From Syntrophales bacterium (GTDB lineage: Bacteria > Desulfobacterota > Syntrophia > Syntrophales > UBA2210), in contig CAXXNF010000002.1 in NCBI GenBank assembly GCA_963666365.2, positions 896,001 to 960,000 on the forward strand: a stretch of DNA of 64,000 bases. The letters run 5' to 3'. Positions 15,001-27,000 of this stretch are shown here, piece after piece. Positions within the stretch are counted from its first letter, which is position 1. Each line of letters begins with the position of its first letter. A program made the position numbers.

Positions 15001-18000
15001 CTGCTTCCCTTTCAAATCAATAAGATTATTCATACTTCCCTGAATTTGCTGAAGGATCAATCGATGTTTCATGGAATCAACATCGAAACCCACCTCTCCG
15101 ACACGCTTCCTGACGTGATGGGAGACCAATGGCGTCTTGAACAAGTATTTTTAAATCTCTTTGTAAATGCCGCAGATGCCATGAACGGCAATGGCACGCT
15201 TAAAATTGAAACAAAGCTCATAGAACGATACTCTCACGACGAGACAACCGACGCCATGGAAACGGAAAAGGTCTGCCTTCTGACCAGTACGCGCACGGTA
15301 AAAATAACCGTCTCGGATACGGGCAAAGGCATCGATAAAAGCTACCTTCCCCATATTTTTGAGCCCTTTTTCACCACAAAAGAACCGGGGAAGGGAACGG
15401 GTCTGGGCTTGTCCATAACGTACGGAATTATAAAAAAACATAACGGCTTTATCGACATCGAAAGTGAGGATGGCAAGGGAACAACGGTCACGATCTATCT
15501 GCCGGCGCTGGAAAGGACTCAGGCTCACCCTGAATGGACCGGCGGAGAAGAACGGTACATAGGATAGCAGAAGAAAACGTTGACTTCATTTTGCCGGCCC
15601 GGTAATATCAAAATACATATGTTCGAATTTTTGGGCTTCATGGCCGCAAGGTGTTTGTCTTCCTAAGAAATTGTGGCGGCAGTGCACATCAAAATTTCAC
15701 TACATCAGGAGGTAAGTGAACATGACTTCAGAAATGGGAAAAAAGGTTCTCCTTGTTGACGACGACCAGGATTTCCTGATGGCCACCAGACTTATACTCG
15801 AAAAAGGCGGGTTCAAAGTCGTTGCGGCTGAAGATGGAAAAGCAGGAATAGAAATGGCGGAATCTGAAAAACCCGATATTGCCATTATCGATATGATGAT
15901 GGAGACCTGGGGCGAAGGATTCTCGGTCATTTCAAAAATTCGCGAATTGGAATGCGGCAAAAAAATGCCCCTGATTGTATTGAGTTCAGTCGATCTTCAG
16001 GGACCATACCAATCTTTCGAACCTTCCGACGAGTTCCCTAAGGTTAACTTGGTACTGCAGAAGCCTGTCAAGGCCGAAGACCTTATTTCGTATATAAATG
16101 ATTTAACAAGTTGATCACTGTGCTATGTCGGAAATCTCCAATTCTGAGTACATACTCATTATAGATGATGAAGAATCCATTCGAGACGGCTGCAGACAAG
16201 CCCTTGAAAGATTTGGATTTCGAGTGCTTGCTGCGGCTGACGGCCAGGAAGGCATTAAAATCGCAAGAGAAATAGGACCGGCAATTGTATTTGTCGACCT
16301 GAAAATGCCCACGGTTTCCGGTATGGACGTAATCGAGGTGCTTTCGAGAGATATTGACGACATCGTGCTTATCGTCATTACGGGATACGCATCAATACTT
16401 TCCGCGGTAGAATCCCTCAAAAAAGGTGCCTATGATTACATCCCCAAGCCTTTTACCCCTGATCAACTCAGAGCGGTAGCCCGCCGCGCCCTGGATCACC
16501 GTAACCTTAAAATCGAGGCGAAAAAGCTTAAAGAGGAACGCGATCAAATCGAAAAAAACTTCATTACTTTCGTGAGTCACGAAATGCGCTCACCCCTTGC
16601 CACGATTCAGCAGTACATGGAAGCCCTCAGACTTGTGAGCGGCGATTGTCTCAGCACGGAGGCAATGGATATTATTGAACGGTGCAGCAAGCGGATTCAG
16701 AATTTGGAAGCGCTGGTGGAACGCTGGCTTGACATAAGCCGAATCGAAAACGAAACCTTTGCATCCGATGTCGAGCCTGTAAAGCTCATAACCGTGGTTG
16801 ACCGGGCTTCTGAAGAAATGTCCCATCTCTGTCAAATCCGCGGTCTCACCGTTGACACCGATATCCCCCCCGATCTGCCGGAAATCAAAGGCGACAAAGA
16901 AAGCCTGGTGCGGGTTCTCATAAACATCATCGGCAATGCAACCAAGTACACCGCCAGTGGAGGAACCATTTCGATTCACGCGCACCATGACGACCACTAC
17001 GTCAGCCTCAGCATCACGGACACCGGCGCCGGAATCCCGCGCGAGAAACTCCCTCTCATCTTTGAGCCCTTTTACCGCGTCGGAGGCAAAGAGGAACAGC
17101 ACAGAGGATCAGGACTTGGACTCACCTTCTGCAAAAAGATTATGGAGGCTCACAATGGAACTATCGGTGTGAGTTCTGAGGTGAATAAGGGAACAACGTT
17201 TACTCTCACTTTTCCTCGTTAGGGGTTACAGGCAGACGCCGCTATATGGATATTTTTGACTCAAAATGTTATGAATTTCACGAAGAGGATCTTTCAGATC
17301 AGTGCTTTATCTGTAAGCATAATTCAAAAAAATGCTTTATCATGCGACACATCGGAAGCATGAAGATGGTCCATCTCTGCGAATCCTGCATGCTGTCGCA
17401 TCTTTCCGAGTATTATCTGGACAACACGCGCCCGTGGATCGGCAAAAGCGATCGTAAACAGCGGAAATAAAATCCTCTTGATCATGATGGTGTAAAATAA
17501 GTATGGCATGCCCTATTGAGTCTATCAGAGCCACCGTTTTCTCCGCTTATAGGACTTCACATCACCATAGGATTTTTTGTCACCCGTAGCGGCCATTCCA
17601 AGGTAGAACTCCTTTACGTCGGGGTTTTCTTTGAGATCGCCCGCGGAGCCTTCCATAACGATTTTACCGTTTTCCATCACGTACCCGTAATGGGCGATCT
17701 GCAGGGCGATATTGGCGTTCTGTTCCACCAGGACGATGGTTGTCTTCTGTTCTTCGTTAATTCTCTTTATGATCTTGAATATTTCGCGCACAATCAGGGG
17801 AGCAAGTCCAAGCGACGGTTCGTCGAGAAGCAGCAGTTTTGGATGGGCCATAAGCGCTCTTCCCATGACAAGCATTTGAAGTTCTCCGCCGCTGCAATAG
17901 CCCGCCATCGATTTTTTACGGGCCTTCAAAGCGGGGAAATACTCGTATATGAGATCCATATCTTTTTTGTAGGGCTTCCCCCACCTCGTTGCCGTACCGA

Positions 18001-24000: not shown

Positions 24001-27000
24001 TATCTCTGCACGAGAGGCTTTGCGGCAAGCCCCTCGCCGGCGCCCCATGTCGCAATCATATGTGCCCGATCCCTTACTGCAAATTTCCTTACCGCTGCCA
24101 CGGCCTCCTGAACTTTATACATCGTATCGACAAGAATCATATCGATTTTCTGCCCATCGATACCGTTTTTTGTTTCATTGATGTAGTTGAAATAATCCTG
24201 TTGTCCCTTTGCATGATACTGCCCCCATGTGGAAGCGGGGCCGGTCAAGTTTATGGCTGCCCCGATTTTAATCGTTTCCGCAGCGACCACCGTTCCACAG
24301 GCAAATGCTGCAATCAGCATCACCATGAAGACTATACCTACCGTTTTTTTCATCACATCGCCCTCCTTTTCGGCTTATCACTAAAAAAAGGGCCGTGTAT
24401 GTGTTCCACGACCCTCAATAACTAAAAAGCCGTGGGAGACTCCTTCAGCCTGCCCACGGCTTATACACTGTTTACTCTTCTACAAGCCCGATCGGCAGAC
24501 CTCCCAGGTAAAGCTAAAAAAGTCAAATGTGCATTTCCTGTGTAGAAGCATTAACCCTTTTCCTCGTACAGCTATTTTTACAACTGGCCCTTCTATTAAT
24601 TGTTGTTGCCAAAAATGTCAAGCAATTTTTGTTATTTTATGTGTTTGAAAAATTTTACGTCCGGCGTCACGACCACTTTCGTCTTTTCGTTCAATGCCGT
24701 TTTGTAGGCCTCGAGACTTCTGAAATATTCAAAAAAATCCACATCCTGCTCGTAGGCCCGGGCGTAGATTTTTATTGCTTCCGCATCACCCTCGCCTTTC
24801 AAATTTTCTGATTCCTTGTAGGCCTTCGCCAGAATAATAGTCCGCTCCATGTCCGCTTTTGCCGTAATTTTCTTTGACTCTTCCTCCCCTTCCGACCGGT
24901 ACTGCCGGGCCTGGCGCTCCCTCTCCGCCTTCATTCTCCCAAAGACGTGCTTTTCGTTCTGTTCGGGAAGGTCGGCACGCTTTATCCTGACATCAACAAC
25001 CTGTATTCCATACTCCTTTGCTTTCAGTGCCGATGCCTCCGTCACTTTGTGCATAATATCGCCCCGCGTTGTCGATACAATATCGGATAGATCGTGCTGC
25101 CCCAGTTCCACTCTGAGCTGCGCATAGACAATATCGTCGAGGCGGGCCTGCGCCCCTGCTTCGGTCCGTACGGTTTTGTAAAACCGCAGAGGGTTTTCTA
25201 TCTTCCACTTGGTATAATTGTCCACTACAAGGTTTTTTTTGTCTTTTGTGAGGATTTCCGTGGGAGTGGCATCGTAGAGTACGATTCTGTTTTCAAAATA
25301 TTCCACCTGCTGAATAAAGGGTATCTTGAAATGAAGCCCCGCCATGGCCACACCATCGATGGGTTTGCCCAACTGTATAACGATTGCCTGCTTGGTCTGG
25401 TCGACCGTGAACACACAAAAAGAAATGCCTATCACGACAACCAGCACTATGACAAATATAATGGGTCCTTTTCTTTTCATCGATCCCTCCCTCACTTGTC
25501 CTTAGGTATTCCAGAAGTATTTGAGTCCAGCGACAGATGGGGAAGCAAATTGTTCCCGACAGTCCCCTCTACAATAATTTTTTCCACATTGGGCAGAATC
25601 TTTTCCATCATTTCAATGTAGAGCCGCTTCTCCGTAACCTCACGGGCGCTTTTGTATTGGGTGAGAATCTGCTCGAACCTGCTTGCATCACCCTGTGCCG
25701 AAATAATCTTGGATTCCTTGTAGGCAATCGCATCATTTACGATCTGCGATGCCTTCCCGTTGGCTTTCGGCAGTATTTCATTCCGATAGCCGTGCGCTTC
25801 ATTTACCATCTTTGCTTTATCCTCTTTCGCACTGGCCACGTCCTTGAAGGCCGCCATGACCTGATCCGGAGGATGAACATCCTGAAGCTGAACCGCGACG
25901 ATTTGAATGCCCGCATTATAGCCGTTCAAAATATCCTGCAGTATCGACTTTGCATCCTGCTGAACCTGGAATTTCCCCGTCGTAAGAATATCGTCAATGT
26001 TGTTATCGCCTACTACTTGTCTCATCGCTGCCTCGGCGGCATCCTTCACCGTCTTCTCCTGGTACTTGACATTGAAGAGATACTGCACGGCATCACTGAT
26101 TTTATACTGCACGATAAAGGTTAAATTGACTATATTCTCTGCCCGTGTCAGCATCAGGCTTTCGCCGGGCACCGCCCGGTTTGGACCGACTTGACGGTCG
26201 CCGATGCTTCTGAACCCGATTTCAATGCGGCGCACCTGGGTTACTGCAGGTTTCAATACCGTTTCGATCGGGATTGGTAGATGATAGTGCGGCCCCGACA
26301 TGGTGGTTCTCACTGCCTTCCCGAACCGTTTCACCACGCCGACTTCTTCGGGCTTTACCACATAAATACCCGAAAGAAGCCACAGCACTACTACCACGAG
26401 TACAATGATCGGCAACGCGCCGAATTTCCCGCCGAACGGTACCTTAAAGGGGAATGCTTTTTTTACTTTTTCAATCACTTCCTGCAAATCGGGTGATTGC
26501 TTACCCCCCCAGGGATCTCCGCCTTGATCCTGCCATCCCATAAATAAACCTCCCTTTGTATGTTTGCCGGTGCAGAATTCAGCGGCGCCTCATCAATAAG
26601 TGCTCAATACATGACAACCGGAATATCCACCACGCCAATCACTACGATTAGTTCGGCATGCTACCATGCGGTTACCGCACTGTCAATAGACCCGGCGCAA
26701 AAATGATACTCATTGTACCACAGGAAATCATGTGGTACTATCGTTCCCGCTATCCTTCAATCTAACAAGGAGTCACTCATAATGAATCCGGAAGTCTTCC
26801 GAGAATACGATGTGAGAGGTCTCGTAGAAAAGGACCTTACCTATGAATTTGTTCGCGACTTGGGCAAGGCGGTGGGCGCCCTCGGCGCTGGAAGAGGGGT
26901 GAAGGCAGTGACGGTGGGAAGGGACTGTCGTCTTTCTTCTGAAAATTACCGCAATGCAATTACAGAAGGTCTTGCTTCAGCGGGTATCGATGTGATTGAC

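What a model noticed while it worked through the whole genome (the two positions that open the first line are those of the whole stretch)
17525..24560. Phenylalanine-codon attenuator with tandem terminators controls a LIV-type ABC transporter operon that contains an acyl- [...]
g02034-g02029 (binding protein, ATPase, 643-aa AMP-forming ligase, two permeases, ATPase), annotated as branched-chain amino acid transport, is led by a Phe-rich leader peptide, antiterminator and two tandem terminators. This ties the operon to phenylalanine supply, e.g. uptake and CoA activation of an aryl-acid precursor such as phenylacetate.
Evidence so far: Leader MLLHRKCTFDFFSFTWEVCRSGL and double terminator. Operon in 44 of 61 Syntrophales; leaders with at least 5 aromatic (almost all Phe) codons in 9 in 28 of 30 loci; GGUCUGCC of the leader pairs with GGGCAGACC of the first terminator and both terminators align. 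Of all genome-wide signature matches only this one and the aro leader lie in a 5' leader of this build. No Rfam hit; no paper (searches 216, 217).
(Added by a program. Inside this text positions count along the whole contig: contig position 896,001 is position 1 of the stretch shown here. "Call 12" and the like, gene names such as g00115 and contig names such as C1 are that model's own, and its searches are not shown. The text may have been shortened before it was handed on; [...] marks where a part breaks off. The agent that wrote the report below was given it as the finding of a first reader that could run no searches.)

Follow-up and report, generated by a model that had tools for sequence, protein, structure and literature searches.

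The report
Phenylalanine attenuator with relayed double terminator
A tiny phenylalanine-rich gene and two linked transcription stop signals very likely switch on a nutrient importer and its CoA ligase when this syntrophic anaerobe runs short of phenylalanine; the sensing is textbook, but the target and the two-stop relay appear undescribed, and the imported molecule is still only inferred.

Summary
A 23-codon leader (4 Phe, 1 Trp), an antiterminator and two intrinsic terminators precede a six-gene LIV-type ABC/AMP-ligase operon. The binding protein occurs in 279 of 339 genomes of the order. Of 89 leaders parsed, 87 carry at least 4 in-frame Phe codons in 9, against 38 of 1872 background regions.

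The second terminator is wired as a relay: terminator 1's freed 3' arm pairs with terminator 2's 5' arm. The two arms change together between the Phe leaders (C:G in 68/69) and the paralogous aro leaders (T:A in 27/30). The relay must be kinetic, and one family has only one terminator (0/16).

The substrate is not established. Phenylacetate-type salvage (about 0.45) fits the binding protein's loss of LivJ's amino-acid contacts and the genome's IorAB. Against it: the ligase is not PaaK, the nearest solved binding proteins hold valine or fatty acid, and 21 of 26 orthologous operons outside the order lack the leader.

No Rfam family or paper was found. The scan found this element before on other genomes (at least nine notes). 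New variant of a known kind.

The parts
24561..24565 (-). SD-like GAGGA of the leader ORF
   Evidence: sequence; an SD-like trimer precedes an in-frame start in 85 of 89 leaders (loose test)
24480..24551 (-). Leader peptide ORF, 23 aa; Phe codons start at 24527, 24521, 24518, 24512; Trp at 24506
   Evidence: in-frame Phe run conserved in 87 of 89 leaders
24480..24501 (-). Segment 2: 5' strand of the antiterminator (GGUCUGCC, helix A; GGCUUGUA, helix B), inside the 3' end of the leader ORF
24447..24465 (-). Segment 3: shared by the antiterminator (3' strand) and terminator 1 (5' arm)
24424..24462 (-). Terminator 1 (3:4 hairpin and U tract); its 3' arm CCACGGC (24435-24429) is segment 4
   Evidence: z -5.5; U tract of at least 5 T in 8 in 87 of 89; two-sided changes
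24383..24416 (-). Terminator 2 (5:6 hairpin and U7); its 5' arm (24416-24406, segment 5) can instead pair with segment 4
   Evidence: z -4.6; present in 69 of 73 non-f14 leaders; 4:5 co-variation
23151..24356 (-). Periplasmic binding protein, HAAT/LIV class (Peripla_BP_6), 401 aa
22320..23147 (-). ABC ATPase, LivG-like, 275 aa
   Evidence: 259 bits, below cut-off 362
20355..22286 (-). AMP-forming acyl-CoA ligase, long-chain (ACSL/FadD11-like) type, 643 aa, adenylation motifs intact
19444..20322 (-). Permease, LivH-like, 292 aa
18341..19420 (-). Permease, LivM-like, 359 aa
17525..18328 (-). ABC ATPase, LivF-like, 267 aa; last gene (the PaaK-fold seventh gene of most relatives is missing here)

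Best explanation
A ribosome-dependent transcription attenuator that reads charged tRNA-Phe. With ample Phe the ribosome reaches the leader stop and covers segment 2, so T1 (3:4) forms, and T2 (5:6) catches polymerases that escape T1. With Phe short the ribosome stalls on the Phe codons and segment 2 captures segment 3 before segment 4 exists, so T1 cannot form. The freed segment 4 then captures segment 5 before segment 6 exists, which disables T2 too (a domino relay), and the importer and ligase are expressed. The operon therefore supplies Phe. Most likely it imports a non-amino aryl acid such as phenylacetate and activates it to the CoA ester, for reductive carboxylation by IorAB to phenylpyruvate and transamination. 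Shown (in sequence or in silico): leader, helices, co-variation, gene content. Inferred: stalling, termination, relay kinetics. Weakly inferred: substrate and downstream route. Odds: Phe attenuation about 0.93, relay about 0.75, aryl-acid salvage about 0.45. The confidence value is for attenuation plus relay, with the operon serving Phe supply.
For: Coding constraint: mean 5.63 Phe codons in the leader frame against 2.87 and 2.47 in the others; stops within the 36 nt in 2, 84 and 12 of 90 loci; both TTT (413) and TTC (94) used. At least 4 Phe in 9 codons in 87/89 leaders against 38/1872 background regions. Geometry: last Phe 3-12 nt before and stop 9-24 nt after the GTC codon in all 89. Masked folds give the antiterminator for all four stall sites and T1+T2 for a ribosome at the stop. 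Helix B pairs better with its own partner than with other families' in 77/89. Relay: the central 4:5 pair is C:G in 68/69 Phe leaders and T:A in 27/30 (T:G in 3) aro leaders; C at segment-5 position 5 occurs only opposite G (8/22 against 0/47; families f1, f13, f17). The same scaffold with F/Y/W codons precedes the aro operon in 30/30 loci. The three paralogous LIV-ligase operons have no such leader. Substrate: LivJ S79, Y202 and E226 align with Ala, Leu and Trp. The genome has two IorAB and two PaaK-like genes. A PaaK-fold gene ends the operon in 11/14 long loci of the order. A Leu-rich leader precedes a 2-oxoacid:ferredoxin oxidoreductase operon in this genome.
Against: Helix A shows no two-sided change in the 26-row test, and the number of pairs with two-sided changes for antiterminator + 4:5 is no higher than in shuffles (295/500). 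At equilibrium 5:6 beats 4:5 (means -19.4 against -16.4; 4:5 wins in 7/68), so the relay needs kinetic trapping. The between-family switch is a single event and could reflect separate duplication of T1 into T2. The ribosome-free fold also gives the antiterminator before segment 4 is made, so no protecting 1:2 hairpin is shown. Substrate: ligase not PaaK; nearest binding proteins 3LKB (valine, Z 45.0) and 4N03 (fatty acid, Z 41.5), and 3LKB also appears to lack the E226 equivalent (by eye). The PaaK-fold gene has an altered P-loop and is missing here. 21/26 orthologous operons outside the order lack the leader. 108/113 genomes keep prephenate dehydratase. No Phe leader precedes the one iorA and one paaK gene checked, both internal genes.
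Confidence: 0.7

Rival explanations
1. Same attenuator, but the transporter takes up L-phenylalanine itself (or a Phe amide or N-acyl derivative), as E. coli LIV-I does; the ligase is inherited baggage of this transporter subfamily or acts on a side substrate.
For: Simplest reading of a Phe leader. E. coli livJ/livK are annotated as Phe-binding. The closest solved homolog holds valine. T102 and Y150 equivalents are kept.
Against: S79, Y202 and E226 equivalents are changed to Ala, Leu and Trp (Ala and Trp invariant in 69 sequences). The ligase stays at 60-67% identity with intact motifs, and is the third gene in all 41 long loci. It has Ile where amino-acid-activating A domains have Asp (alignment by eye, motif recalled).
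Confidence: 0.25
2. The operon imports and activates an acid unrelated to Phe synthesis (fatty, branched or alicyclic), and the Phe leader serves as a general gauge of amino-acid supply or translation speed.
For: Ligase of long-chain type. Second-nearest binding protein annotated as fatty-acid binding. Leaderless orthologs outside the order neighbour beta-oxidation, second-ligase or mutase genes.
Against: Leader codons match the pathway at the other attenuators of this genome: F/Y/W at aro, W at trpB, L at leuA. Here 501 of 532 aromatic codons are Phe.
Confidence: 0.15
3. T2 is an independent back-up terminator or a processing/stability hairpin that merely arose by duplication of T1, with no functional 4:5 pairing.
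For: 5:6 is more stable than 4:5 in 61/68. f14 works with T1 alone (0/16). T2 resembles T1, so complementarity follows from duplication.
Against: An unregulated terminator with a U tract would cap expression. Segment 5 stays complementary to segment 4 across families at about 70% protein identity, with fewer 4:5 than 5:6 mismatches (16 against 25 of 66 loci; three of the 66 were mis-anchored). It tracks segment 4 within and between leader families, and a Trp leader of different sequence shows the same option (by eye).
Confidence: 0.2
4. The U-rich stretch is not translated; the element is a riboswitch, T-box or protein-binding leader.
For: Strong nucleotide bias in the repeat (TTT 413, AGC 98, GGC 74). 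Translation not observed.
Against: Frame-specific absence of stops and Leu TTR codons; in-frame start in 88/89; codon identity changes with the target pathway; no Rfam match.
Confidence: 0.04

Closest known systems
Gammaproteobacterial pheL-pheA attenuator (PMC3082878: abstract and Introduction read); pheM-pheST (recalled)
   Same: Short leader with Phe codon run, 2:3 antiterminator against 3:4 terminator with U tract.
   Different: No Rfam match. Target is an importer plus CoA ligase, not a biosynthetic enzyme or tRNA ligase. Two terminators. No 1:2 pause hairpin shown. Different phylum.
Salmonella/E. coli his operon attenuator (leader with seven His codons: passages of PMC3896937, PMC9413887; hairpins AB/CD/EF against BC/DE: recalled)
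   Same: A chain of alternative hairpins passes the ribosome's position to a distal terminator.
   Different: In his only the last hairpin terminates (recalled); here both relay hairpins carry U tracts and are near copies of each other.
E. coli LIV-I transporter (LivJ/LivK-HMGF)
   Same: HAAT-class binding protein, two permeases, two ATPases.
   Different: All five subunits fall below the NCBIfam cut-offs. 18% identity to LivJ, with three of five ligand contacts changed. An acyl-CoA ligase is embedded.
Thermus thermophilus binding protein 3LKB (valine bound) and Thermomonospora 4N03 (fatty acid)
   Same: Nearest solved folds: Z 45.0, rmsd 2.6, 360 aligned; Z 41.5, rmsd 2.5, 358 aligned.
   Different: 24% and 21% identity; aryl-acid binders such as 4DQD (phenylpyruvate, Z 38.0) are not far behind, so the ligand cannot be transferred.
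Aryl-acid route to aromatic amino acids through CoA ligase and indolepyruvate:ferredoxin oxidoreductase (Methanococcus maripaludis, rumen anaerobes; recalled). The oxidative direction is mentioned in PMC5109826 (passages read).
   Same: [quoted passage not shown]
   Different: No ABC importer or long-chain-type ligase is known to me for it; in Desulfococcus multivorans phenylacetate-induced uptake is a TRAP system (PMC5109826).
'ABC-leaders' of Naville and Gautheret 2010 (PMC2965389: section 9 and passages read)
   Same: Attenuators predicted in front of ABC transporter operons.
   Different: Those shown are T-box or unknown types in Firmicutes and Pasteurellales; the main text has no 'Syntroph' or 'delta'. 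Its supplementary table was not read.

Membership tests
Ribosome-dependent leader-peptide transcription attenuator | Short upstream ORF with a cluster of cognate codons and a start signal | tested here: met
Ribosome-dependent leader-peptide transcription attenuator | Intrinsic terminator between leader and first gene | tested here: met
Ribosome-dependent leader-peptide transcription attenuator | Antiterminator mutually exclusive with the terminator, of similar stability | tested here: met
   (-30.2 against -29.9); helix A nearly invariant, helix B co-varies
Ribosome-dependent leader-peptide transcription attenuator | Geometry: stalled ribosome frees segment 2, terminating ribosome covers it | tested here: met
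   (in silico, assumed footprint -18/+12 nt)
Ribosome-dependent leader-peptide transcription attenuator | 1:2 pause/protector hairpin | tested here: inconclusive
   one search shows weak upstream pairings only; not tested across homologs
Ribosome-dependent leader-peptide transcription attenuator | Read-through depends on the amino acid in vivo | not testable with these tools
   needs a reporter or transcript ends
Rfam phenylalanine leader family (RF01859; accession recalled and from earlier scan notes) and T-box | Covariance-model score at gathering threshold | tested here: not met
E. coli-type LIV-I amino-acid transporter | NCBIfam curated cut-offs for LivK/G/H/M/F | tested here: not met
   46.6/477, 259/362, 117/379, 123/366, 215/441 bits
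E. coli-type LIV-I amino-acid transporter | Ligand contacts S79, T102, Y150, Y202 (PMC6983066, passage read) and E226 (recalled) | tested here: not met
   T102 and Y150 kept; S79, Y202, E226 changed; alignment at 18% identity
PaaK phenylacetate-CoA ligase (for the 643-aa protein) | TIGR02155 score near 646 bits, about 430 aa | tested here: not met
   not among the best 25 families, whose lowest score is 77 bits; one search gives the cut-off
ANL superfamily AMP-forming acyl-CoA ligase | AMP-binding domain, P-loop, YGxTE, TGD, GR-K and terminal Lys motifs, ANL fold | tested here: met
Aryl-CoA ligase by substrate | Activates an aromatic acid | tested here: inconclusive
   fatty-acyl (Z 41.2) and benzoate (Z 40.6) ligases tie

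The most novel reading that the evidence does not exclude
The operon is the entry step of an anabolic cross-feeding route: Syntrophales scavenge phenylacetate released by amino-acid fermenters through an ABC importer with a built-in ligase, and carboxylate it back to Phe instead of paying for de novo synthesis. Control is by a double-terminator domino attenuator. This would give the first physiological substrate for a widespread orphan class of LIV-plus-ligase operons and a new attenuator design with two coupled stop points.
Probability: 0.38. Interest if true: 0.72.

Novelty: new variant of a known kind. Interest (0 to 1): 0.5.

Why it matters
It re-annotates a near-core operon of an order of key methanogenic syntrophs (279 of 339 genomes), now labelled branched-chain amino acid transport, as serving phenylalanine supply. 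It names testable substrates for an orphan transporter-ligase class. It also offers a compact natural design in which one ribosome-controlled switch opens two terminators in series, which should lower leak and can be tested in E. coli reporters. The sensing principle itself is decades old.

Tried and rejected
Promoter: TTGACA at 24621-24616 lies just upstream, but the scan lists no promoter there and sigma-70 consensus sites are not clearly enriched in relatives (11/89 against 131/1780 shuffles), so no promoter is claimed and read-through from hflKC is not excluded. The terminator scan missed both hairpins (loops over its limit). Phylogenetic profile with prephenate dehydratase was uninformative (108/113 have it). 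A plasmid search gave only distant hits, about 24-27% in the rows listed. Short Phe-rich ORFs upstream of family f31 orthologs were rejected as leaders: no switch motif, and they read like a promoter. The seventh gene as proof of phenylacetate was rejected: about 200 bits against cut-off 646, altered P-loop and pocket. Alignment A2 holds one wrong-strand aro row among 26, and its 25 real rows were hand-picked from T2-bearing loci; carry that bias. The first T2 regex (66/89) mis-anchored some f13 and f1 rows and is superseded. Literature: searches returned nothing; others returned listings, none of whose titles or abstract starts describes this element. Lopatovskaya et al. 2010, which as I recall predicts classic attenuators in delta-proteobacteria, is not held and could contain a precedent; supplements of PMC2965389 and PMC4833913 were not read.
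Full report
OBSERVATION. The minus strand carries hflK-hflC, a 275-nt gap, and six genes spaced 3-33 nt apart: binding protein (24356-23151), ATPase, 643-aa AMP-binding ligase, two permeases and an ATPase ending at 17525. The gap holds an SD-like GAGGA, the ORF MLLHRKCTFDFFSFTWEVCRSGL (24551-24480) and two hairpins with U tracts. The hairpins fold at z -5.5 and -4.6. An alternative helix joining the end of the leader to the 5' arm of the first hairpin folds at -28.2 kcal/mol, z -3.8. Rfam gives only a chance hit here (E 7.2) and nothing at gathering score in five related loci. Record titles of the closest named relatives point to Syntrophales.

DISTRIBUTION. The binding protein matches in 279 of 339 genomes of the order, mostly at about 70% identity; families f2, f3 and f15 have none with this query. 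In a phylum sample it is found in 49 of 401 genomes, 13 of them in the order. I read the upstream DNA of 90 loci from 89 genomes and 14 families: the 30 best matches plus 60 chosen from the 150 listed of 299, so the set leans to close orthologs. The script parsed 89; the 90th (L057) shows the same leader by eye. Gene order is constant in all 41 long loci, two of them cut by contig ends.

THE LEADER IS CODING. In the 12 codons before the conserved GGTCTGCC there are on average 5.63 Phe codons in the leader frame against 2.87 and 2.47 in the others. Stops occur in 2, 84 and 12 of 90 loci, and TTT and TTC are both used (the anchor was chosen to maximise the Phe count but falls on the invariant motif, and one row was mis-anchored). 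Of 89 leaders, 88 have an in-frame start, 87 have at least 4 Phe in 9 codons and 76 have at least 5; the background is 38 and 5 of 1872 upstream regions. Aromatic codons are 501 Phe, 29 Tyr, 2 Trp. The last Phe lies 3-12 nt before the GTC codon and the stop 9-24 nt after it. In family f63, outside the order, the stop codon sits directly before the motif (4 of 4), so the conserved Val-Cys is RNA, not peptide.

THE SWITCH. With a ribosome mask on any of the four Phe codons the nascent RNA folds into the antiterminator; with the mask on the stop codon it folds into T1 and T2 (assumed footprint). Across 89 loci the antiterminator averages -26.8 kcal/mol before T1's 3' arm exists, and the two states are level afterwards (-30.2 against -29.9). 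Helix B pairs better with its own partner than with partners from other families in 77 of 89. On a 26-row alignment (25 hand-picked T2-bearing leaders from 11 families plus one wrong-strand row) both structures are 96% paired, against 34-60% when slid. T1+T2 have 7 pairs with two-sided changes (0/500 shuffles). Antiterminator + 4:5 beat all shuffles on pairing and covariation score but not on the number of such pairs (295/500), because helix A hardly varies.

HOW TWO TERMINATORS ARE OPENED. The antiterminator touches only T1. T2's 5' arm, however, is a copy of T1's, so T1's freed 3' arm can capture it before T2's 3' arm is made. T2 is present in 69 of 73 leaders outside family f14 and in 0 of 16 in f14. 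The aro operon (DAHP synthase, aroB, pheA and others) has a leader of the same build with mixed F/Y/W codons in 30 of 30 loci. The central 4:5 pair is C:G in 68 of 69 Phe leaders and T:A in 27 of 30 aro leaders (T:G in 3). Within the Phe family, C at the fifth position of segment 5 occurs only opposite G (8 of 22 against 0 of 47; three families). Two independent hairpins need not change together. Against this: the between-family switch is one event, kin are not independent, and 5:6 is the more stable helix in 61 of 68 loci, so the relay must work by folding order. A Trp leader of different sequence in this genome offers the same pairing by eye; an earlier scan note led me to it. I recall the his attenuator as the nearest design, with only one terminating hairpin.

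WHAT IS IMPORTED. The genome holds three more LIV-plus-ligase operons (ligases 37-41% identical) without such a leader, so Phe control marks this one clade. None of the five transporter subunits reaches the E. coli LIV cut-offs. In a profile alignment at 18% identity LivJ's T102 and Y150 are kept, while S79, Y202 and E226 become Ala, Leu and Trp (contacts from PMC6983066, E226 recalled); this suits a carboxylic acid without an alpha-amino group. But the nearest solved structure, 3LKB, also seems to lack the Glu and is titled 'with bound valine'. The next is a fatty-acid binder, and aryl-acid binders follow within 7 Z units. The ligase has intact adenylation motifs, is of long-chain type rather than PaaK and ties by fold between fatty-acyl and benzoate ligases.

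GENOME CONTEXT FOR THE SUBSTRATE. A PaaK-fold gene closes the operon in 11 of 14 long loci of the order and is found in 77 of 113 high-quality genomes. It scores about 200 bits against a cut-off of 646, has an altered P-loop and pocket, and was not found here or in f4, f21 and f24. The genome encodes two IorAB and two PaaK-like ligases, enough for phenylacetyl-CoA to phenylpyruvate (route recalled from methanogens and rumen bacteria). It also places a Leu-rich leader before a 2-oxoacid:ferredoxin oxidoreductase operon, a parallel for salvage by reductive carboxylation. De novo synthesis is kept (108 of 113), so the operon would be a cheaper alternative, not a necessity. Outside the order only 5 of 26 orthologous operons carry the switch, and others neighbour catabolic genes, so the ancestral role may be broader. 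I put aryl-acid salvage at about 0.45, Phe itself at 0.25 and an unrelated acid at 0.15; the rest covers other Phe precursors.

LITERATURE AND EARLIER NOTES. Nine searches found no description of this leader, target or tandem build in the open-access library. I read the abstract and Introduction of PMC3082878, one section and passages of PMC2965389, and passages of PMC5109826, PMC6983066, PMC3896937, PMC4833913 and PMC9413887; the rest only as listings. Lopatovskaya et al. 2010 is not held, and unread supplements of PMC2965389 and PMC4833913 could list such leaders. The scan has noted the same element on other genomes at least nine times; these notes are not independent support.

VERDICT. A real, order-wide Phe attenuator of the classical kind, with an unusual target and a well-supported but untested double-terminator relay. 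The substrate remains open. New variant of a known kind; interest 0.5.

Noticed in passing
L100:10750-10900 (G000:C2:1525750-1525900, minus): aro operon leader MGINCRADNYFSFYWYFYHTSVCPFAWRS with the same antiterminator and two terminators; present in 30 of 30 aro loci read.
   Followed up: yes
L208:300-460 (G000:C1 ~1,029,800): Leu-rich leader and terminator before a four-subunit 2-oxoacid:ferredoxin oxidoreductase operon (beta subunit best matches 3-methyl-2-oxobutanoate dehydrogenase).
   Followed up: partly
G000:C1:921225 (+) and C1:68119 (-): Single-terminator leaders of the GCCATGG type, with tandem Trp codons before a trpB-like gene and many Leu codons before a leuA-like gene (genes named by eye from their N-termini).
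   Followed up: no
L209:727-900 (G000:C2 ~516,200): Leader with three Trp codons and two terminators of different sequence whose arms also allow the 4:5 pairing.
   Followed up: partly
L163:7721-8965 and orthologs: Seventh gene of most relatives: PaaK fold with the P-loop replaced by FTSPGPVYEP and a different pocket motif; may be non-canonical or non-catalytic. Not found in this genome, f4, f21 or f24.
   Followed up: partly
L035, L042, L058, L074 and other f14 loci: Family f14 has T1 only, a weaker antiterminator and more Tyr in the leader (19 of 102 aromatic codons), which may mean joint Phe/Tyr sensing.
   Followed up: partly
L137-L140 (family f63, outside the order): Leader ends FFFF-D/G-stop directly before GGTCTGCC; single terminator.
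   Followed up: partly
window 24512-24530 and homologs: Spacer codons between Phe pairs are mostly AGC or GGC (98 and 74 of 1080 codons), giving RGCTTTTT repeats that mimic the terminator's 3' end; unexplained, possibly a 1:2 or 1:3 pairing.
   Followed up: no
L146, L149, L150, L155, L156, L159 (family f31): Leaderless ortholog operons followed by a second acyl-CoA ligase, a dehydratase-type activase and, in most, a double-cubane reductase-like gene.
   Followed up: no
L101, L102, L103: Three paralogous LIV-plus-long-chain-ligase operons in this genome with different gene orders and no Phe leader.
   Followed up: partly
L056; L170: L056 has its leader about 370 nt upstream, with no T2 detected; L170 (G272) has the seven-gene operon but no switch motif.
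   Followed up: no
families f2, f3, f15: No binding-protein ortholog found with this query (0/4, 0/3, 0/7), including single-contig f15 genomes.
   Followed up: no
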